A stretch of DNA of 15,814 bases from a virus (lineage: Duplodnaviria > Heunggongvirae > Uroviricota > Caudoviricetes). Location: positions 1 through 15,814 of the IMG/VR virus record IMGVR_UViG_2531839555_000011; one strand, given 5' to 3'. Below are positions 1 through 15,814 of this stretch, piece after piece. The translations under genes were made by a program, and so were the position numbers. The first letter of the stretch is position 1; each line of letters begins with the position of its first letter. The notes beneath the pieces were generated by a model that worked only from the letters and a program-made list of their open reading frames with translations, did no database searches and had not been told where the DNA came from.

Positions 1-537
1 TTACTCGTCCAGCAGAATCACTTTGCCGATATACGGCAGATGACGGTAACGCTGTGCGTAATCAATGCCGTAACCCACCACAAACTCATCCGGGATCGAG
101 AAACCGATAAATTCTACCGGGACGTTCACTTCACGACGGGACGGTTTATCCAGCAGCGTACAAATCGCCAACGACTTCGGTTCGCGCAGGCTTAAGATCT
201 CACGCACTTTCGACAGTGTATTCCCCGAGTCGATGATATCTTCAACAATCAGCACGTCCTTGCCACGGATATCTTCATCCAGGTCTTTGAGGATTTTCAC
301 ATCACGGGTGGTGGACATGCCGCTACCGTAGCTGGAGGCGGTCATAAAGTCGACTTCATGAGATACCTGAACTTCACGGCACAGGTCCGCCATAAACATA
401 AATGAGCCACGCAGCAGACCCACCAGCACCATATCGCTGCCGCTGTCTTTGTAACGCTCAGTAATCTGACGACCCAGTTCGGCGATACGCGCTTTAATCT
501 CCGCTTCGGGGATCATTACTTCTACAATATGTTTCAT
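1..537 (-). CDS. hpt: Hypoxanthine phosphoribosyltransferase
   Basis: Complete minus-strand ORF (ATG at 537-535, TAA at 3-1), 178 aa. Contains the PRPP-binding motif [13 protein letters not shown] and matches the enterobacterial Hpt sequence as I recall it almost residue for residue. Confidence 0.95.
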
Positions 538-942
538 AAACTTTATATCCCACTGATTTTAATCAGTTAAATTAACAAACATGCCATGCATTTTAGCTAA
601 AAGTGATACACCGAGTGATATACGGATTATTGCACAAAGCCGAAAATATGCGAAAGCATGAGCACGGTAGAAAGGCGGCGAGTATAACAGTATTAAAAAG
701 CAAATTATGAATCTCTTATTGTATGAGACATCTATCCCACAATAACCCATTATCAGCATCCCCACGCATCATGCCCACCAGCGTGAAGCATTTTTCGCGG
801 GTATAAAAAATCGATGGAGCGGGCAGTCCGGAAGACGTCAGGGTACAGAGATTTGACCCGCCCCTCCCTGTGCATGAGCACAATAAGTAACCGAAGGCGG
901 AATTCCGCCCTCGGTACTCACATATGAGAAACGATATTTCTT

Positions 943-1063
943 CCACCGATCCCCTGTATTTGGGTATCGCAAGTAAGCCCCAAAATCTGGGTGTTACTCT
1001 TACTACCCAAACTACGGGTAGTTTCCGTAGTTTCATAGTCGAGTTGCAGATCTGCAACTCGCC
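943..1063. repeat. 121-bp structured direct repeat, copy A
   Basis: Aligns by eye to 1377-1497 with about 7 mismatches. Contains several perfect or near-perfect hairpins: CGATCCCC..GGGTATCG, AAACTAC-GG-GTAGTTT, GAGTTGCA-GATC-TGCAACTC. The ORF-track ORFs over the two copies are on different strands, so conservation is at nucleotide level. Confidence 0.8.
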
Positions 1064-1193
1064 ATCAGTCAGGGAAATTTTGTAATTTCACGGAGGTTAA
1101 AATTCGAAGAGGCGGGCACTCCAAGAGATAAGAGACGGTAGGGATTTTGCTCCCCCTCCTGAATGCAATTTTTCGTATATATATACAAAACAG

Positions 1194-1211
1194 TGCGGGT
1201 TATGCGGGTTA
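1194..1211. repeat. Two tandem copies of TGCGGGTTA (reverse complement of TAACCCGCA)
   Basis: gTGCGGGTTATGCGGGTTAgcg read directly from the sequence; same 9-mer as the array at 1297-1348 in opposite orientation. Confidence 0.7.
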
Positions 1212-1296
1212 GCGAGTTATCTTCGCGTGCTAAGTATTTTTTATTATTTAATATCAATGCGTTGAAAAATAACATGTTCAAATGTTAGCCAAATCG

Positions 1297-1348
1297 TAAC
1301 CCGCAAGTCATTCAAAATAACCCGCAACCTCTCCCAAATAACCCGCAA
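1297..1348. repeat. Three direct copies of aaaTAACCCGCAA at 21-bp phasing (candidate protein-binding array)
   Basis: TAACCCGCAA at 1297-1306, 1318-1327 and 1339-1348, each preceded by an A-rich tract. The 21-bp period puts the sites on one face of the helix. Interpretation as integrase arm-type or excisionase sites is inference. Confidence 0.6.
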
Positions 1349-1376
1349 ACACATCAGGAAAGTGGGGCCAGTGATG

Positions 1377-1497
1377 CCACCGATCCCCTTTATTTGGGGA
1401 TCGCGAGTAAGCCCCAAAATCTGGGTGTTGCTCTTACTACCCAAACTACGGGTAGTTTCCGTAGTTTCATGGTCGAGTTGCAAATCTGCAACTCACC
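1377..1497. repeat. 121-bp structured direct repeat, copy B
   Basis: About 94% identical to 943-1063. Hairpins CGATCCCC-TTTATTT-GGGGATCG (perfect 8-bp stem), AAACTAC-GG-GTAGTTT and GAGTTGCA-AATC-TGCAACTC. Lies immediately right of the TAACCCGCAA array. Confidence 0.8.
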
Positions 1498-1833
1498 CAC
1501 CAGCCAACCCATTTTTGGGCCGTCGGGAATATCAACAAGTTAGCACAGAAATAACTCAGGCAGATACAAAACTCAATTTTGAGGTTTGCTTATTATTCAG
1601 TTGGTTAACATCCCTCAAAACTGAGGACTGTACCCAAAACTATTCTTATAGCTCCGGCCTCAGCCGTTGGCTTTTCCCGAAAATATCAGTCAGTTACGTT
1701 AACCGCTAATTTCTGCCTTTGGTGTGAATACTGTCGCTTTAACCTACGGTAATTGTTCTGCCTCGGTGCGTGTCACCGCCGTAACCGCGCCAGTAAAACC
1801 CACAGATTCGTGGTTTTCCTGAATATCAGGAAT

Positions 1834-2127
1834 CTACCGCCGCAACCGTTCCGGCTTCTTCCACTGGTAAGTATTTTTCGCGCTCTCCCTCCGTTGTTGA
1901 GAACGGCGACGGTATGCCAGCAACTCAAGGACTCTGGTTCGTATGTTGCGCATATCCACGCCGTTAAGCTCAATAACGTCACGGCGCATCACCTTAGCCA
2001 CCACACGCGCGTAATTTTCAGCGGTGACGGTATCCGGCTGCTTGGCCTCCGGTTTGCCTGTTGCCTGGCAGACTCCGGTAACGCAGCGAATTATTTTTAG
2101 TAGATCGGTTTCAGTCATTCTCGTCAT
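1834..2127 (-). CDS. Hypothetical basic 97-aa protein coupled to the large terminase
   Basis: ATG at 2127-2125 overlaps the terL stop (2126-2124) as ATGA. Arg/Lys-rich C-terminus. No family recognised. Confidence 0.45.
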   Translation of the reverse strand: MTRMTETDLLKIIRCVTGVCQATGKPEAKQPDTVTAENYARVVAKVMRRDVIELNGVDMRNIRTRVLELLAYRRRSQQRRESAKNTYQWKKPERLRR

Positions 2128-3785
2128 ACCCCATCAAATGCCGCTAGTCGCTCTTTCTGGCTGTCGCTCATATCAAATGCAAATTCCTCATGCTCAGCCT
2201 GGAATGTGCCAAACGCCATCAGCGCCGCAACGCTCGGGTCTATCTTGTTGGATGATTTTTTCTTGTTCGGCTTGATATTGGCGTTCGCGTCACTCTGCAT
2301 CACAACATTACTCATTGACCAGGCCAGCACCGGATCACCACGATGCACAATCACCTTCCGGTTAACAAAAACCTCGAACGATTTCGCCGCCGGACTGAAA
2401 CGAAGGTAGGTTTGAGGGAACGGCTCCACCTCAAAGCCTGCCCCCTGTAACTGCGTTCTCAGGTGCGTGGCGTTCCACGTATCAAAGCCCACCAGCCTGA
2501 TATTGAAATTCTCTGCATCCGCCATGATGTCATCACGGATACGGTCATAATCAATGCAGTCACCCGGTGTTGTGCGTATCCAGCCCGCCTTTGCCCACTG
2601 GCGATAGATGGCGCGGTTTTTATTGGCGGGGTTCTGTAGCTGAAATTCCGGCAGATAGTGACGAGAAACCAGCATAATGGTTTTACCAACCGGAAAGGCA
2701 TAGCACACGCTGGAGATGTCGCTTGTAGATGATAAATCAAGCCCCGCGTAACACTCCTGACCGTGTAAATCTTCCTCCGTGAACGTTCCGGCGCACTCAG
2801 CCCATGCACCGTTACCCATCCACGGCGTAGCCCCCTGACACCAGATATTGAATCGCTTGGTGAGCATTTCCACCCACTGCGACGGAATACCCCGCGCTTT
2901 CTGGATGGTTGAGGCCAGTTTTTCACGATCTACGGAAACATCGATATTGGGATTCGCCTTTATCCACATCGCCGGATCGTCAACCTCGCTTTCATCATCC
3001 AGCTCATAAATCAGAACGAACATGGATTCGTTCACCTCTTCACCATCCAGTATCTGGCAGCAATAGTCGTAGTGTTGTTTACAGGCTGAAACAACGTTGC
3101 TCCCCGATGTGGTGATGGCAAATAACAGCCCCTCCGGGCGTGCCCCCATTCCCAGTTCAAGCGCGGAATAAACCCCGTTGTCAGGGTGGAGGTGATATTC
3201 ATCCACAATGGCAAGACTCGGGTTTGTACCTTCAATGGTTGCTGCTTTTGCTGCCAGTGGCTTTAACAGACTGTTGGTTTTCGGGTGTATCACCTTGTGT
3301 GCCTGAATATTTACCCGCTTTCGTAACGGTCGGGATAAAAGGCACATCTGACGCGCATCATCAAACACGATCCGCGCCTGATCACGACTCACGGCGGCGG
3401 TGTAAATATCCTGCTGCCCGTTTTCCATAACCAGAAACCAGTTAGCCAGGATAGCGGCGACCGTGGATTTGGCATTTTTTCGCGGAACTTCAATGAATGC
3501 GCTGGTGTATTTGCGCCGTCCGGTGGCCTTAACCTTAAAGCCCAGGATGCACGCAAAGGCGAACTGCTGCCACGGCTCCAGCTCAATGGGGCTACCGCGC
3601 ATTGCGCCTTTTACGTGCGGACACACCCTGGAAAAGGCAATAAACCGCTCCACGACCTCCGGATCGAACGTGTAAAGGGGGTTTTCAAGGTCAGAAAAAT
3701 ACCGTTTAACGGCCTGTTTCAGTCGTTTACAGGCCGTAATTTTGCCGTTTTTTACGCCTTCTGCGTACTCATGCCAGGCGGTCAA
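2124..3785 (-). CDS. Terminase large subunit
   Basis: 553-aa ORF with N-terminal ATPase and C-terminal nuclease regions typical of phage large terminases. Apparent TTG start at 3785-3783 preceded by a GAGGA Shine-Dalgarno; overlaps the terS 3' end by 17 nt. Confidence 0.9.
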   Translation of the reverse strand: MTAWHEYAEGVKNGKITACKRLKQAVKRYFSDLENPLYTFDPEVVERFIAFSRVCPHVKGAMRGSPIELEPWQQFAFACILGFKVKATGRRKYTSAFIEVPRKNAKSTVAAILANWFLVMENGQQDIYTAAVSRDQARIVFDDARQMCLLSRPLRKRVNIQAHKVIHPKTNSLLKPLAAKAATIEGTNPSLAIVDEYHLHPDNGVYSALELGMGARPEGLLFAITTSGSNVVSACKQHYDYCCQILDGEEVNESMFVLIYELDDESEVDDPAMWIKANPNIDVSVDREKLASTIQKARGIPSQWVEMLTKRFNIWCQGATPWMGNGAWAECAGTFTEEDLHGQECYAGLDLSSTSDISSVCYAFPVGKTIMLVSRHYLPEFQLQNPANKNRAIYRQWAKAGWIRTTPGDCIDYDRIRDDIMADAENFNIRLVGFDTWNATHLRTQLQGAGFEVEPFPQTYLRFSPAAKSFEVFVNRKVIVHRGDPVLAWSMSNVVMQSDANANIKPNKKKSSNKIDPSVAALMAFGTFQAEHEEFAFDMSDSQKERLAAFDGV

Positions 3786-4125: not shown

Positions 4126-4412
4126 GTTTTTTTTCGCCCAATTATTTTCAAAAAAATTACCGTGCACAAAAATTTGAGGGGGCGGTCGGTGTCCGGCAGG
4201 GACGGTTTCGTCCTGAAAACCACCCCCACCCCCTCTGACGGCCTCACCAGCGATTGCGAAAACATTCCATGACCTCGCGGTCACGGTCGGTTAATCGCTT
4301 CGCTGTGGTGCGTTTTGTGCGCCCTGTCCTGTTGGCTTTGTGCTCTGTCTCCTGTGTCTTCCATGTGTCACGCTGCCTTATCAGTCCACGTATCAGCCTG
4401 GTTTGCTCCTGT
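4126..4412. other. Candidate cos / packaging-initiation region
   Basis: Non-coding gap between HNH and terS, the position cos occupies in HK97-type genomes. Contains a G/C-rich nested dyad, GAGGGGG (4176-4182) ... CCCCCTC (4229-4235) with an inner GGACG-gttt-CGTCC hairpin, next to A/T runs. Assignment is inference. Confidence 0.3.
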
Positions 4413-9402: not shown

Positions 9403-9626
9403 CCTGTTCACCTTTTGATATTTTATCTTTTAATTCATAATGTTAAGGGGTGAACAGTTTCACAAAAACTATTCACCAACTGTTCACCACTGTTCACCCT
9501 TGAAGCTCAATAAACAATCAAAAAGGTGAACAGTGAATAGTTTGGTGAACAGTTCATAAATAACTGTTCACCCTATAATATACTGATACAAAAGATATTT
9601 ATGACAGGGTGAACAGTGGTGAACAG
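9403..9626. repeat. Iteron-type replication origin (9 copies of GGTGAACAG/CTGTTCACC)
   Basis: Exact 9-mers at 9403, 9449, 9480, 9490, 9525, 9544, 9564, 9608 and 9618 in both orientations plus partial copies, with an AT-rich tract at 9574-9606, immediately 3' of the primase-helicase gene. Confidence 0.8.
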
Positions 9627-9639
9627 TTATTCCATAAGT

Positions 9640-11457
9640 TTAATTTTTGCTATCGTCATTAGTGACCGATACACATGATGGCATCCAGTCTTCTGATTCC
9701 TCCGTCAGTGTCACGTTTGAACGCAAACCGTGCTTCGTTTTCCGTTTCATATACTCCCTGCCATATTCCGCCATTGCCCCCGGCATATCTTTACCGAAGC
9801 GCGTCAGTGTTACAGGTTTACCAAACCCATGTGCCTTCATATAAGCCAGATAGGCATGATAGAGATACCTGCGCGGGCTGAATGGCACAATTTCAGCATT
9901 ACCCACTAACAGGCCATCACACATTACCGACGCCATGAGATAGCCGCAGAAGTCCACCAGCGAATCCCCCTCTCGCTTTATCGCCAGTGCTTCTTCAGAT
10001 TTCTGCTGCTCATATAACAGGCGTCTGGCTTCGTCCTGGTCAGCAAACCGTGTAAGCAGATGGCGAATCACTACCGCCAGCTCACCTTCTATTTTTTCCG
10101 CCAGCATTGGATCACGTTCGTTCTCCGGTACAACTTCCGAAAAATTGAATATCACCCGACGACGTGAGATCCCCCCGCTGCGGTCACTGAATGACATGGC
10201 GTTATTGTTAACCGCCAGCACTACTGCCGGAATACGCGTTGAGTAGGGGGCTTTGTGTTTCGGGTCAATTGCCACCTTGTCACCGCCTGTAATAGCCTTA
10301 ATCCCTGCCCCATCACCAGCGTAGCGGGTCATATCCGGCATGATAATCAGCGAAAAGCCAACCACTAACGCGCGTTCCCTTGCATCTTCCAGCGCCTTCA
10401 TGCTTGCCGATACTGTGTTGGCCTTACCCGCCAGCATGGTGCAAATCTCCGCCATCACGCTTTTACCACTTCCCCCTGGACCTGTTACCTCAATGAATAA
10501 CTGCCAGTCGTACCGGTTCGCCAGCACCATGAATAATGCAGCCAGTACGCGATCCGCCTTGCGGTCATTCTCAGCCACCGAACGGCGTAACCACTTCCAG
10601 AAATTCGGCGCATGTGTTGCCAGCGTTTCCCCCTCTGCTGGTGGGCTGAAAGGTAATTCACTGGCAATTAACAACCAGTCGTTTTTGTTATGCTCCCGAA
10701 AATTACCTGTTCTGGTATCAAATACCCCGTTACTGAATCCAATCAGGTTACGGGCTGTATTCCCCATTACAGGCAAACTTAACTTCATGGTATCGACCGC
10801 CGATTTAATGGCGTTCTGCGAATAGCTGATCTCCGCATCAATGAAAATCTGCGCCATAGCTCGCTGTAATTCTTTATCCTGTACTGGCTCCCATACAACG
10901 CCGTTGTAATGGTGAACAGTGTCAGAGTCGGCATGAATCGCCAGTTCACCGCCATAATGTGCCAGGAGAACTTCGCCGCGTTGACTTGCTCCCATCTGGT
11001 TAAGCGCCAGTGATGAAGCGTTATCGTCTTTTACCCGCTCTTTTTTCTTTACAGGCAGTTCAACTACCTTTTTCTTTTCCGCCAGCTCTGCCCGTTCACG
11101 TTCCAGATATTCGCGCCAGTTCTCCCGTTTCTGGCTGTGCATTCCTTCAGAGTAATAATCAGCATCCCTGACACCTGCCGCTGCCAGTTTCTGCCCGATG
11201 GTATTAACAAGCCCCGGACGCAATAACCCCGCCTGATAGAGACGCACGCGATAGCGTCCGTCCGGTACGATTTGCAGGTTGTCCAGTTCGGCAAGTTGTT
11301 GCTCTCCAAGCCAGACAGGAGGCACGTTATCGCCAGCCAGTCGCCCGTCCTGTTCCTGCCACTGTTTCGCATGTGCCCACGCATCACTACCCGCAAAAAT
11401 GATGACTTCCGTCATTTTGTCACGCGGCTGGTGTTTTAAATTTGGCGCTTTTTTCAT
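9640..11457 (-). CDS. Replication initiator: primase / SF3 helicase
   Basis: Start at ATG 11457-11455 (MKKAPNLK...) with GGAGAG Shine-Dalgarno; Walker A GPGGSGKS and Walker B-like LIIMPD; about 605 aa. Domain architecture consistent with P4/PICI primase-helicases. Confidence 0.85.
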   Translation of the reverse strand: MKKAPNLKHQPRDKMTEVIIFAGSDAWAHAKQWQEQDGRLAGDNVPPVWLGEQQLAELDNLQIVPDGRYRVRLYQAGLLRPGLVNTIGQKLAAAGVRDADYYSEGMHSQKRENWREYLERERAELAEKKKVVELPVKKKERVKDDNASSLALNQMGASQRGEVLLAHYGGELAIHADSDTVHHYNGVVWEPVQDKELQRAMAQIFIDAEISYSQNAIKSAVDTMKLSLPVMGNTARNLIGFSNGVFDTRTGNFREHNKNDWLLIASELPFSPPAEGETLATHAPNFWKWLRRSVAENDRKADRVLAALFMVLANRYDWQLFIEVTGPGGSGKSVMAEICTMLAGKANTVSASMKALEDARERALVVGFSLIIMPDMTRYAGDGAGIKAITGGDKVAIDPKHKAPYSTRIPAVVLAVNNNAMSFSDRSGGISRRRVIFNFSEVVPENERDPMLAEKIEGELAVVIRHLLTRFADQDEARRLLYEQQKSEEALAIKREGDSLVDFCGYLMASVMCDGLLVGNAEIVPFSPRRYLYHAYLAYMKAHGFGKPVTLTRFGKDMPGAMAEYGREYMKRKTKHGLRSNVTLTEESEDWMPSCVSVTNDDSKN

Positions 11458-13790: not shown

Positions 13791-14594
13791 TTAAGGAAGA
13801 ATTTTTCTATCCTGAAGTTCTGACCTGATTTTTTCTATAGAAGAAATTGAGAAGATTTTTTCTATATTTGGCTTTACGGTTTGCGCTATCTGCGTTGAGT
13901 CATACTCTCCGTTCGGAAACACAGCCACAGCAAGCACGCCATTGGTGACGCATGCCCCGCGAGATTTAGCCCAGATCATCAAATCAACCACGGGGAAAAG
14001 TGAATAATCGTATACCTTTTTTTTAATTGTTTCCCATGACTGGTATGTTTTTTCCTTTTCTTTTATTTTTAATTCCTCACGCCAATTCTTGAGGTTTTTT
14101 TCAAACACATCAATCAATAAATCATCCGGGCGTGACAAATCAACTTTAATAAAAAGGTCATTTGGTTCCAAAAATGAGCTAACACTTGTAAATGAATGGT
14201 AAACTAAATTTTCAGCCGTTCCCGTAAAATTATTTTCCATATAATTATCTACAGCATCTTTCATATAAATAAAGTCTTCAATGGACATTGGTCGTAACGC
14301 AACCCCACCAGACAAAACACCTTCTCTTTTAATAGGAAGTTTAAACGCATCATAGAAGTACGTAGCTCTATCAATCGCATTAGCGACCGCGCCATTTCCA
14401 AGTATCCTTCCTACTTCATCGTTATTTGTAAGAGGTTCATTATAAAAAGACCCGCCATATCGATAGAAGTTTTCAAGCATGTCATATCTAACAACCAACT
14501 GATAAAATAAGTCTTTATCTGACATGCCAATAAATTGAGTGTAGTTATCTAAATCAAACCATGTTGGCAAATCTTTTTTGTGGCTAATTCTCAT
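13791..14594 (-). CDS. AT-rich 267-aa cargo protein of unknown function, coupled to int
   Basis: 804-nt ORF; 60-nt samples give about 25-45% GC against about 50% in int. ATG 14594-14592 overlaps the int stop as ATGA. No recognisable catalytic or DNA-binding motifs. Confidence 0.7.
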   Translation of the reverse strand: MRISHKKDLPTWFDLDNYTQFIGMSDKDLFYQLVVRYDMLENFYRYGGSFYNEPLTNNDEVGRILGNGAVANAIDRATYFYDAFKLPIKREGVLSGGVALRPMSIEDFIYMKDAVDNYMENNFTGTAENLVYHSFTSVSSFLEPNDLFIKVDLSRPDDLLIDVFEKNLKNWREELKIKEKEKTYQSWETIKKKVYDYSLFPVVDLMIWAKSRGACVTNGVLAVAVFPNGEYDSTQIAQTVKPNIEKIFSISSIEKIRSELQDRKILP

Positions 14595-15814
14595 TTTTCA
14601 CCAGCCTTTAAAATAACGATATTAGAGTGATTACCCGCGAGAAGTTCTAAGCGGTCATACCACTTGTTCAGCGCGTCCAGCTTCTCCGGTAAGTAAAGAC
14701 TACGGTTATAAATCGCCATAACTCCCGGCAAGGCATGGCCCAACAGCAGCTCGACTATATGCGGTGCTATACCCATATTGTTTAGCCCCGTAGAAAACGT
14801 CCGACGCAGATCGTGAAGTGTCCACGGCTCGTTATGGTGAAAATCTTTAAAAAGCCTGCGCCCTTTCAATGATACAGCCTGACGGGTACGATCTTCGCCC
14901 AGTAACAAACCTGTTTTCCCTGTCTCGCGCTTTAACTCTTCCAGCCACGGGCGTATAGCTTCAGGTATCGACCTCACGATTTTCTCTCGGGTTTTGCTAT
15001 GCTCTTTCGGTACAGTCCAAATCCACGATGTAAAATCCCACTCTGACCATCGAGAAAGGCGAACTTCCATCGTTCGCGCACCAAAAAGCACCAGCATTTT
15101 GAGCAGACGTGAATAATACGGCTGCTGATCATCGCTATCTGTACAGCGCCACACATCAGCCAGCTCGCTATCTGACAATACGCGATCACGTTGACCAGAT
15201 GGCTGGCCTACATCCTGAATGGTGAGAAAGGCCAGAGCATCACTGGCAGCATAACGGCGAACCTTGCAGAAACGTAACGCCTGTTTAGAAATCTGGAACA
15301 TGCGGCCGGCGGTCATGGGTTTAGTCTGGTTTATTTCGTCAAAACAGGCCACCCAATGGCGGGTTTCACATCTGGTGATCGGATAACGACCAAGGCGCGG
15401 GTAAATATGCTTGCGTAGCTGCGCCCTCACCAACGCCTCATCACTGCGCTTTCTCCTGGCGTAATTCACCAACCAATATTCCAGGGCGTCTTTAACCGTT
15501 ACAGGCTTAAGCGTTTCTTCTGTGCTCAGCTCAATCTCAGTTTTCGGATCAAGCCCACCAGCCAGCCACTGGCGACACTGTTCCCGCTTTTCTCGCGCAA
15601 GTTTTAGCGGCATATCAGGGTAACGGCCAAGCGTTAAACGTTCGAGTTTGCTACCCCTTCCTCCCAACCGGTATGAAAATACCCAGCTAACGTTACCTTG
15701 CTTCGAGACCTTAACGCTTAGCCCCTCACCATCGGCAATCATGATCGGCGCTTCACGCTCAGAACCCAGCAATGCTTTTAGCTTTTTGTCGCTCAGTTTG
15801 TTTGTGCCAGCCAT
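14591..15814 (-). CDS. int: Tyrosine integrase, P4-like family
   Basis: 407 aa starting at the window edge (ATG 15814-15812). N-terminal arm-binding-like region (GEGLSVKVSKQGNVSWVFSYRLGG...), C-terminal catalytic residues (HDLRRT, LLGHA, a Tyr near the C-terminus). Confidence 0.93.
   Translation of the reverse strand: MAGTNKLSDKKLKALLGSEREAPIMIADGEGLSVKVSKQGNVSWVFSYRLGGRGSKLERLTLGRYPDMPLKLAREKREQCRQWLAGGLDPKTEIELSTEETLKPVTVKDALEYWLVNYARRKRSDEALVRAQLRKHIYPRLGRYPITRCETRHWVACFDEINQTKPMTAGRMFQISKQALRFCKVRRYAASDALAFLTIQDVGQPSGQRDRVLSDSELADVWRCTDSDDQQPYYSRLLKMLVLFGARTMEVRLSRWSEWDFTSWIWTVPKEHSKTREKIVRSIPEAIRPWLEELKRETGKTGLLLGEDRTRQAVSLKGRRLFKDFHHNEPWTLHDLRRTFSTGLNNMGIAPHIVELLLGHALPGVMAIYNRSLYLPEKLDALNKWYDRLELLAGNHSNIVILKAGEK

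What the first reader, a model, noticed from the sequence alone, without database searches (positions are those of the whole stretch)
943..1497. Two 121-bp, about 94% identical, hairpin-dense direct repeats between hpt and the element
Copies at 943-1063 and 1377-1497 each contain at least four stable stem-loops, and some mismatches fall in loops or keep pairing. The conservation is not in a shared reading frame. They could be partial att duplications from tandem integrations, a structured small RNA family, or a miniature intergenic repeat; I cannot tell which, and none is explained by the annotated genes.
Basis: seen in the sequence. Interest (0 to 1): 0.6.

Follow-up and report, generated by a model that had tools for sequence, protein, structure and literature searches.

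The report
Duplicated hairpin module in satellite tail
The two 121-base repeats are real. They are copies of a conserved four-hairpin non-coding module from the tail end of E. coli phage satellites (PICIs), duplicated here together with a phage-type DNA-packaging (cos) site, and they are neither integration-site scars nor a common genomic repeat.

Summary
**Observation:** confirmed. Positions 943-1063 and 1377-1497 are 94% identical, and each folds into four hairpins (z = -6 to -9).

**Location:** The window is a capsid-forming PICI integrated at the 5' end of hpt, with its att core at about 521-540. Both copies therefore lie inside the island.

**The unit:**
- It occurs in 665 of 5,426 complete E. 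coli genomes, usually once.
- It is always in a PICI, 50-450 bp downstream of the last operon gene (a 93-97 aa basic ORF, PHROG 1561).
- The PICIs that carry it use at least four different integration sites.
- It is absent from phages, from Rfam and from all 185,579 species-representative genomes.
- It is more conserved than the neighbouring ORF (pairwise identity 0.90 vs 0.79).

**Neighbours:**
- In 70% of evaluable copies a GC-rich hairpin follows on the operon strand. In 54% that hairpin is terminator-like.
- In about a third of elements an HK97/P27-type phage cos site lies exactly 74 bp further on.
- In this window the "cos plus unit" arrangement is present twice: cos at 789-868 with copy A, and a diverged cos at about 1084-1161 with copy B.

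**Best reading (confidence 0.4):** a transcribed, structured 3' trailer of the PICI operon, possibly processed into a small RNA. Covariation is too thin to show which strand is used, or whether RNA rather than DNA is the functional form.

**Verdict:** an undescribed but narrowly distributed element of moderate interest.

The parts
521..540 (.). att core of the island (CTTCTACAATATGTTTCAT), overlapping the hpt start codon; the left border of the PICI
   Evidence: Three-way alignment of the window, the empty K-12 gcd-hpt site and the int-side junction of strain KSC9
789..868 (.). cos X1: an 80-bp HK97/P27-type cos site. The 10-nt cohesive-end core GGAGCGGGCA at 816-825 is predicted by homology.
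   Evidence: 82-95% identical to the cos region or genome ends of phages vB_EcoM-720R4, SfII, SfV, SfI, ST64B and phiP27. phiP27 carries an annotated 10-nt cos-site. SfI and SfV record ends map to window 816 and 832.
890..915 (-). GC-rich hairpin followed by a T-rich tail: an intrinsic-terminator-like site on the operon strand, directly downstream of unit A
   Evidence: Terminator scan: 11 pairs, tail TACTTATTGT. Of 149 evaluable unit copies, 105 have this hairpin and 81 also have a T-rich tail.
916..942 (-). Conserved A/U-rich spacer between unit A and the terminator hairpin
   Evidence: 96-100% identical wherever the hairpin is present
943..1063 (-). Unit copy A: four hairpins. This is the copy that keeps the ancestral cos, 74-nt spacer, unit layout. 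The strand is inferred from operon direction, not shown.
1084..1161 (.). cos X2: a diverged second cos-like sequence, with core GAGGCGGGCA at 1109-1118
   Evidence: Aligns colinearly with X1 and the phage cos sites. Scores 62-67 bits against a cos HMM, although X2 was itself one of the sequences used to build that model.
1162..1376 (.). 'armrep' module: two inverted and three direct TAACCCGCAA repeats around an AT-rich core. It travels together with X2-type cos.
   Evidence: X2 plus armrep matches in 243 E. coli genomes, usually without the unit, for example next to the att arm of the PICI in L099
1377..1497 (-). Unit copy B: four hairpins with no terminator hairpin next to it. A Chi octamer (CCACCAGC on the + strand) at 1497-1504 abuts it.
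1498..1833 (-). Trailer between the orf282 stop codon and unit B: small hairpins, each followed by a GAAWATCA..AGTTA motif
1834..2127 (-). orf282: the last gene of the PICI operon, encoding a 97-aa protein with a very basic C-terminus (PHROG 1561, function unknown). It is always the gene immediately upstream of the unit.
4166..4236 (.). Third cos-like sequence, upstream of terS; probably the cf-PICI's own cos. Not part of the repeat, but needed to interpret X1 and X2.
   Evidence: Sequence layout. Weak cos-HMM hit at the same position in L100. The end of the vB_KppS-Ant record maps to window 4210.

Best explanation
The 121-nt unit is a conserved cis element of E. coli phage-inducible chromosomal islands. 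It lies in the untranslated trailer of the island's single long operon.

I think it is transcribed on the minus strand, reading on from the last gene (orf282, 1834-2127). There it would fold into four hairpins. In the ancestral single-copy layout it is followed by an A/U-rich spacer and an intrinsic terminator (915-890). That terminator stops transcription just before the cos site and attP.

Such a trailer would protect the late packaging mRNA from 3' exonucleases. It could also be released as a stable small RNA of about 180 nt.

The window has two copies because two tail modules were joined by recombination: cos X1, terminator and unit A, and cos X2, armrep and unit B. A transcript from orf282 would then carry unit B, cos X2 and unit A before reaching the terminator.

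Shown: position, linkage, orientation, conservation, folding potential and the terminator-like site. Inferred: transcription, the strand used and the function.
For: 1. Invariant linkage and orientation. Wherever the locus extends far enough, the unit lies 50-450 bp downstream of the orf282 stop codon, on the same relative strand. This holds in cf-PICIs and in classical DUF1441-type PICIs.
2. Of 149 evaluable copies, 105 have a GC-rich hairpin within 140 nt downstream on the operon strand, and 81 of those have a T-rich tail. The window's site at 915-890 passes the terminator scan.
3. Very stable four-hairpin fold, z = -6 to -9.
4. The hairpin 1 loop is hypervariable while its stem is kept. Two stem pairs in hairpin 1 show changes on both sides: C-G to U-A in 5 of the distinct sequences and A-U to C-G in 1.
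5. The non-coding unit is more conserved than the adjacent coding gene: mean pairwise identity 0.896 vs 0.786, and higher in 89% of 1,770 pairs.
6. Pairing is slightly better on the minus strand (96.2% vs 93.3% of cells).
7. Gram-negative PICIs are transcribed unidirectionally from alpA (PMC6092414).
8. A satellite-encoded regulatory sRNA has a precedent in the V. cholerae PLE (bioRxiv 10.1101/2022.04.08.487710, title and abstract seen).
Against: - No expression data.
- No Rfam family.
- No convincing promoter next to the unit on either strand.
- Covariation is thin: 2 of 36 pairs, and only in helix 1.
- Stems vary as often as loops: 22 of 72 paired columns vs 16 of 48 unpaired columns.
- Transitions that favour one strand are about balanced, roughly 5 events for the minus strand and 4 for the plus strand. 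RNAalifold scores the two strands alike.
- 30% of copies, including copy B, lack the downstream hairpin. In the L009 type the hairpin has no T-rich tail.
- The family is young and narrow: at least 76% identity, E. coli and close relatives only, with no distant homologues in 241 million metagenome records. Conservation could therefore reflect recent recombinational spread rather than selection.
Confidence: 0.4

Rival explanations
1. Recombination-shuffled palindromic filler. PICI tails are mosaics of small hairpin modules that are exchanged and stacked by recombination between islands. On this view the unit is the largest such module and has no dedicated function. It looks conserved because it spread recently and is homogenised by exchange.
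For: - Tails consist of many short hairpins, each followed by a GAAWATCARCNRGTTA motif that contains the orf282 stop codon. These look like stacked remnants of orf282 3' ends.
- Modules occur in different orders and orientations between islands.
- Two independent truncations of the unit share the same breakpoint inside hairpin 2 (L041, L090).
- A 9-nt slippage deletion occurs in two lineages.
- Stems are no more conserved than loops.
- The family is narrow and young.
- A Chi octamer abuts 41 of 95 copies, and the island carries 15 Chi octamers, so it is likely to be a good substrate for RecBCD-promoted recombination.
Against: - The unit is more conserved than the neighbouring coding gene across islands whose ORF is only 58-70% identical at the protein level.
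- Its position and orientation relative to orf282 never change.
- Compensatory changes keep helix 1 paired.
- It is retained in 12% of E. coli genomes, in islands at four or more att sites.
Confidence: 0.28
2. A DNA-level accessory of packaging. The hairpin-prone unit lies next to cos, on the side the terminase motor reaches last, which is presumably the first DNA injected into a new cell (by analogy with lambda; not tested here). It might help the terminase recognise or cut cos, act as a satellite-specific specificity element comparable to the PICI cosB read by Rpp-TerS, or protect the incoming DNA end together with the adjacent Chi site.
For: - In 31 of about 88 unit-bearing loci an HK97/P27-type cos lies exactly 74 bp from the unit, always in the same orientation. 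L100 has a more diverged cos at 69 bp.
- Both copies in the window have a cos-like sequence on the same side.
- Phages with a 92-95% identical cos lack the unit, so it is satellite-specific. This parallels the PICI-specific cosB of EcCICFT073 (PMC6739421).
- Some PICIs are known to carry two cos sites.
- A correctly oriented Chi octamer follows the unit in 41 of 95 copies.
Against: - About two thirds of unit-bearing elements have no such cos near the unit, and in some another gene follows instead.
- In HK97 the small-terminase site is 15-29 bp from the cut on the terS side (PMC11331095). That is the opposite side from the unit, and it falls within the 80-bp segment shared with phages.
- The cf-PICI seems to have its own cos upstream of terS, about 2.7 kb away.
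- Its TerL is only 31% identical to that of the phage sharing cos X1.
- EcCICFT073, the PICI whose cos sites were tested experimentally, has no unit.
Confidence: 0.15
3. A plus-strand RNA, antisense to the operon. An sRNA or antisense transcript would start near cos, run through the unit and continue antisense to orf282 and terL.
For: - The fold is as stable on the plus strand as on the minus strand.
- In the diverged L009 type, three stem changes are G-U wobbles only on the plus strand.
- In group-c islands a similar GC-rich hairpin lies on the other side of the unit, in inverted orientation.
Against: - No promoter-like site upstream on the plus strand.
- In phages, the homologous cos region is transcribed in the opposite direction.
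- The common stem variants (29-57 A·C, 70-88 C·A, 98-119 C·A) are mismatches on the plus strand.
- The inverted hairpin in group c has no T-rich tail that passes the scan.
Confidence: 0.07
4. Partial att sites left by tandem integrations.
For: The copies are direct repeats near one end of an integrated element. The duplication does appear to result from joining two island tails.
Against: - The att core is a different 19-20 bp sequence at 521-540.
- The unit is absent from the empty site.
- There is no copy at the int end.
- The unit is shared by islands with different integrases and at least four integration sites.
- It is present once in an excised 10.8-kb circular PICI, 150 bp or more away from attP.
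Confidence: 0.02

Closest known systems
Structured 3' UTRs and 3'-UTR-derived small RNAs that share the mRNA's intrinsic terminator; for satellites, the PLE-encoded sRNA SviR of Vibrio cholerae
   Same: The unit lies downstream of the last ORF on the operon strand. It has a multi-hairpin body, then an A/U-rich spacer, then a GC-rich hairpin with a T-rich tail. It is carried by a phage satellite.
   Different: No transcript has been shown and no promoter or processing site has been identified. There is no sequence relation to any Rfam family. Covariation is too weak to prove an RNA structure. Copy B lacks the terminator.
PICI cos regions: EcCICFT073 cos1/cos2, with a PICI-specific cosB read by the Rpp-TerS complex
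   Same: A satellite-specific sequence next to a cos core borrowed from a helper phage. Two cos-like sites occur in one island. The location is at the packaging-gene end of the island.
   Different: EcCICFT073 has lambda-type cosN sites flanking rpp and no unit. Here the cos is HK97/P27-type. The unit lies on the side away from the expected TerS site, and two thirds of units have no cos nearby.
HK97/P27-type phage cos sites (SfV, SfII, ST64B, phiP27)
   Same: Window 789-868 is 82-95% identical to these sites, including the G-rich 10-nt core. Positions 1084-1161 and about 4166-4236 have the same layout.
   Different: The 121-nt unit itself has no counterpart in these phages, where the HNH gene occupies that position.
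Enterobacterial extragenic palindromic repeats (REP/BIME, ERIC/IRU)
   Same: Palindrome-rich, non-coding, located after the last gene of an operon, and built from shuffled hairpin modules.
   Different: One copy per island rather than tens to hundreds per genome. Found only in PICIs, in 12% of E. coli genomes and in no species-representative genome. No similarity to the ERIC core as I recall it; that comparison was from memory, not a tool result.

Membership tests
att site (attL/attR or partial att from tandem integration) | The same sequence is present at both ends of the integrated element | tested here: not met
   In KSC9, which has the same island, only two copies exist in the whole genome and both are at the hpt end. 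None lies within 3 kb beyond int.
att site (attL/attR or partial att from tandem integration) | The core sequence is present once in the empty chromosomal site | tested here: not met
   The K-12 gcd-hpt intergenic region lacks the unit. The shared core is CTTCTACAGTATGTTTCAT at the hpt start.
att site (attL/attR or partial att from tandem integration) | The sequence is tied to one integrase and one integration site | tested here: not met
   The same unit is found in islands at hpt, at tRNA-Ile/mug, next to fis and inside a prophage terL gene.
Abundant intergenic repeat (REP/BIME, ERIC, MITE) | Many dispersed copies per genome, independent of one mobile element | tested here: not met
   755 places in 665 of 5,426 genomes, median 1 and maximum 6. 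Always downstream of the PICI gene orf282. 0 matches in 185,579 species-representative genomes.
Known RNA family (Rfam 15) | Covariance-model match at or near the gathering score | tested here: not met
   Only three chance-level matches (E = 4.7-9.7, 16-20 bits against gathering scores of 33-67) in positions 500-2200. No tRNA or tmRNA.
Terminator-ended sRNA or structured 3' UTR | Stable conserved secondary structure | tested here: met
   Four hairpins, z = -6.3 to -9.1; 93-96% of stem cells paired across 31 distinct sequences.
Terminator-ended sRNA or structured 3' UTR | Intrinsic terminator at the 3' end on the transcribed strand | tested here: inconclusive
   Met for copy A (915-890, minus strand) and for 81 of 149 family copies. 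Absent for copy B and for 30% of copies.
Terminator-ended sRNA or structured 3' UTR | Compensatory base changes that support the pairs | tested here: inconclusive
   2 of 36 pairs changed on both sides, both in helix 1. The covariation score was reached by 2 of 500 shuffles, but the sequences are closely related.
Terminator-ended sRNA or structured 3' UTR | A detectable transcript with defined ends | not testable with these tools
   No expression data were available. The sequence string was not found in 8 million papers.
HK97/P27-type cos site | Homology to a phage cos region, including the 10-nt cohesive-end core | tested here: not met
   Met by the neighbouring segment 789-868 but not by the 121-nt unit. 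Phage matches stop at window 868.
PICI cosB / small-terminase recognition site | Lies on the packaging-start side of the cut, within tens of bp | tested here: not met
   The HK97 TerS site is at +15 to +29 on the terS side. The unit lies 110-240 bp away on the opposite side. This is an analogy, not a binding test.

The most novel reading that the evidence does not exclude
The unit is a satellite-specific functional element that acts on the helper phage. One possibility is a small RNA released from the PICI operon trailer that reprogrammes helper or host gene expression. The other is a cis DNA element that, together with the adjacent borrowed cos sites, lets even capsid-forming PICIs be packaged by a second family of helper terminases. 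cf-PICIs are currently thought to be packaged only by their own terminase. This island would then have three usable cos sites and two packaging routes.
Probability: 0.15. Interest if true: 0.65.

Novelty: new member of a known kind. Interest (0 to 1): 0.4.

Why it matters
PICIs and capsid-forming PICIs are widespread vehicles of gene transfer in E. coli, and their non-coding DNA has hardly been examined.

This work identifies a non-coding module that about one E. coli genome in eight carries, always in the same place in the island, and that is more conserved than the gene next to it.

It also shows that a cf-PICI, which has its own terminase and its own probable cos, carries one or two extra cos sites nearly identical to those of SfII/SfV/ST64B-type phages.

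If the module proves to be an RNA or a packaging element, it would add a regulatory or specificity layer to satellite-helper interplay. If not, it is a useful marker for PICI tails and shows how those tails evolve by shuffling hairpin modules.

Tried and rejected
- **Lambda-type cosN (GGGCGGCGACCT):** no better than chance in the window. A 3-mismatch hit in the circular PICI L010 is not significant.
- **EcCICFT073 comparison:** fetched from CFT073 after two wrong 50-kb guesses. It has lambda-type cosN sites on both sides of rpp but no unit, so the published cos1/cos2 are not this element.
- **Rfam, tRNA and tmRNA scans:** nothing.
- **More distant homologues for covariation:**
  - two IMG/VR pattern scans;
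  - one scan of species-representative genomes, with 0 hits;
  - one protein-anchored scan with orf282, giving only S. flexneri and P. gergoviae, both without the unit;
  - one metagenome scan, giving 72 loci with the same variants.
  
  The family turned out to be too narrow to settle structure or strand.
- **RNAalifold on both strands of the whole trailer:** no difference.
- **orf282 as a possible binding partner:** no Pfam family; PHROG 1561 of unknown function. The AlphaFold model is poor (pLDDT 59, three helices) and has no PDB match.
- **Protein-coding reading of the unit:** rejected, because the frames differ and indels occur.
- **oriT or plasmid origin:** no plasmid homologues other than excised PICIs.
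- **Literature:** searches for an E. coli PICI sRNA and for the sequence string found nothing relevant.

Full report
**1. The observation.** The repeat finder reports a single family of two 121-nt direct copies, 943-1063 and 1377-1497. They are 94% identical, ungapped and 434 nt apart, and they are far longer than any other repeat in the window. When the flanks are included, similarity ends at the unit borders. Each copy folds into four hairpins on either strand, at -45 to -55 kcal/mol and z = -6.3 to -9.1, and no shuffle folds as well. ORFs that overlap the two copies are in different frames, and relatives differ by 9-nt and 1-nt indels, so the unit is not coding.

**2. Where the copies really are.** The window is a capsid-forming PICI (cf-PICI). 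On the minus strand it encodes int (14591-15814), regulators, a DUF927 primase, the major capsid protein, the prohead protease, the portal, an HNH endonuclease, a P27-family TerS, TerL (2124-3785) and a small last gene that I call orf282 (1834-2127). The annotation comes from the near-identical island of strain KSC9 and.

- I compared the window with the empty K-12 gcd-hpt site and with the int-side junction of KSC9. The att core is CTTCTACArTATGTTTCAT, and it overlaps the hpt start codon at about 521-540.
- Both copies therefore lie at least 400 bp inside the island, not between hpt and the element.
- KSC9 has only these two copies, and none lies beyond int.

**3. Distribution.**

- The unit matches 755 places in 665 of 5,426 complete E. 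coli genomes, with a median of one and a maximum of six per genome.
- I inspected about 160 loci: E. coli genomes, 85 IMG/VR contigs and 72 metagenome contigs. Wherever the locus extends far enough, the unit lies 50-450 bp downstream of the orf282 stop codon in the same relative orientation.
- It occurs in cf-PICIs and in classical DUF1441-type PICIs. The carrying islands sit at hpt, at tRNA-Ile/mug, next to fis and inside a prophage terL gene. It is also present in a 10.8-kb excised circular PICI that was deposited as a plasmid.
- It is absent from 50,697 phage records, from Rfam and from all 185,579 species-representative genomes.
- It is also absent from EcCICFT073 and from the S. flexneri PICI that carries orf282.
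- All copies are at least 76% identical, and no distant relatives were found.
- Only this hpt cf-PICI lineage has two copies: 5 of the 88 loci then in hand, plus two of the later metagenome contigs.

**4. What lies next to it.** The 80 bp at 789-868 are 82-95% identical to the cos region of HK97/P27-type phages: vB_EcoM-720R4, SfII, SfV, SfI, ST64B and phiP27.

- Record ends of SfI and SfV map to window 816 and 832. The annotated 10-nt cos-site of phiP27 aligns with 816-825.
- Between this cos and unit A lies a GC-rich hairpin with a T-rich tail on the minus strand (915-890), which passes the terminator scan.
- The conserved ancestral block is therefore cos, a 74-nt stretch containing the terminator hairpin and a spacer, then the unit. 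It occurs with exactly this spacing in 31 of about 88 elements.
- A second sequence at about 1084-1161 aligns colinearly with these cos sites and keeps the G-rich core.
- That second cos-like sequence comes with a 215-bp module of TAACCCGCAA repeats (1162-1376). The pair matches in 243 other E. coli genomes, usually without the unit.
- The duplication is thus best explained by recombination joining two island tails: cos X1, terminator and unit A to cos X2, repeat module and unit B.
- A third cos-like sequence lies upstream of terS at about 4166-4236, where HK97-like phages have theirs. The end of a 16.5-kb particle-derived cf-PICI record maps there.
- The island's TerL is only 31% identical to that of the phage whose cos is 95% identical to X1. 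X1 therefore looks borrowed from a helper-type phage rather than cognate to the island's own terminase.

**5. Is the unit under constraint, and as what?**

- It is more conserved than the adjacent coding gene. Mean pairwise identity is 0.896 against 0.786, and it is higher in 89% of 1,770 pairs.
- The hairpin 1 loop varies freely while its stem is kept. Two stem pairs show changes on both sides.
- Beyond that the evidence is thin. Only 2 of 36 pairs covary. Stems vary as often as loops (22/72 vs 16/48 columns). Pairing is 93.3% on the plus strand and 96.2% on the minus strand. Strand-diagnostic transitions are about evenly split.
- The data therefore support a hairpin-forming element but cannot decide between RNA and DNA, or between the two strands.

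**6. Mechanism.** I favour a transcribed 3' trailer of the PICI operon on the minus strand (confidence 0.4). The supporting points are:

- the invariant position after the last gene;
- the unidirectional transcription of Gram-negative PICIs (PMC6092414);
- the downstream hairpin in 105 of 149 copies, terminator-like in 81;
- the layout of a structured body, an A/U-rich spacer and a terminator.

Such a trailer could stabilise the packaging mRNA and stop read-through into cos, att and hpt, and it might yield a small RNA.

A packaging role at the DNA level is less likely (0.15):

- two thirds of units have no cos nearby;
- the HK97 small-terminase site lies on the other side of the cut (PMC11331095);
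- the cf-PICI has its own probable cos about 2.7 kb away.

A null reading remains serious (0.28). In it, the unit is a recombination-shuffled palindromic module spread by exchange between islands:

- the tails are mosaics of small hairpins and stacked orf282 3' ends;
- the family is young;
- the island is rich in Chi, with 15 octamers, one of which abuts 41 of 95 units.

The att-remnant idea is refuted.

**7. Comparison with what is known, and novelty.** The element resembles structured 3' UTRs and 3'-UTR-derived sRNAs, and in position it resembles the PICI-specific part of a cos region. It belongs to no described family that I could test. I found no description of it in the PICI and cf-PICI papers I read or by a sequence-string search. 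I rate it a new member of a known kind: a conserved non-coding element of a phage satellite. Interest is moderate. The most interesting by-product is that a cf-PICI carries extra phage-type cos sites in addition to its own.

Noticed in passing
window, whole; e.g. 775-782, 1497-1504: There are 15 Chi octamers in 15.8 kb, 4 on the + strand and 11 on the - strand, against about 0.5 expected at random. One lies just left of cos X1 and one abuts unit B. In the family, 41 of 95 units have a perfect Chi 2-3 nt after hairpin 4, oriented to stop RecBCD entering from the cos end.
   Followed up: partly
window 789-868, 1084-1161, about 4166-4236: One cf-PICI carries three HK97/P27-type cos-like sequences. 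The tail copy X1 is 95% identical to the cos of an SfII-like phage, yet that phage's TerL is only 31% identical to the island's TerL. This suggests a borrowed second packaging signal.
   Followed up: partly
window 1162-1376: A module with two inverted and three direct TAACCCGCAA repeats around an AT-rich core, including a LexA-box-like TCGTATATATATACAA at 1166-1181. It travels with X2-type cos, and the pair matches in 243 E. coli genomes. The layout recalls lambda cosB (R sites around an IHF bend), a comparison from my own knowledge that I did not test.
   Followed up: partly
window 9424-9641: A dense cluster of direct and inverted GGTGAACAGT repeats next to the primase gene, probably the island's replication origin.
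   Followed up: no
L101 (E. coli O145:H28 strain 16003), locus 12668-25220: A unit-bearing PICI is inserted inside the terminase large-subunit gene of a lambdoid prophage and splits it in two. This integration site would disable the prophage's own packaging.
   Followed up: no
L012, L016, L029, L042, L056 (tails to the right of the unit); window 1498-1833: PICI tails contain repeated small hairpins, each followed by GAAWATCARCNRGTTA. The motif includes the orf282 stop codon, as if successive orf282 3' ends had been stacked by recombination.
   Followed up: partly
L010 = NZ_CP148328.1, whole record: A 10,790-bp 'plasmid' record is an excised circular PICI: int, attP, cos, terminator, unit, orf282 and so on.
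   Followed up: partly
window 602-622 and L001 33165-33185: GTGATACACCGAGTGATATAC occurs near both ends of the island, about 65 and 145 bp from the att core. These are probably integrase arm-type binding sites.
   Followed up: no
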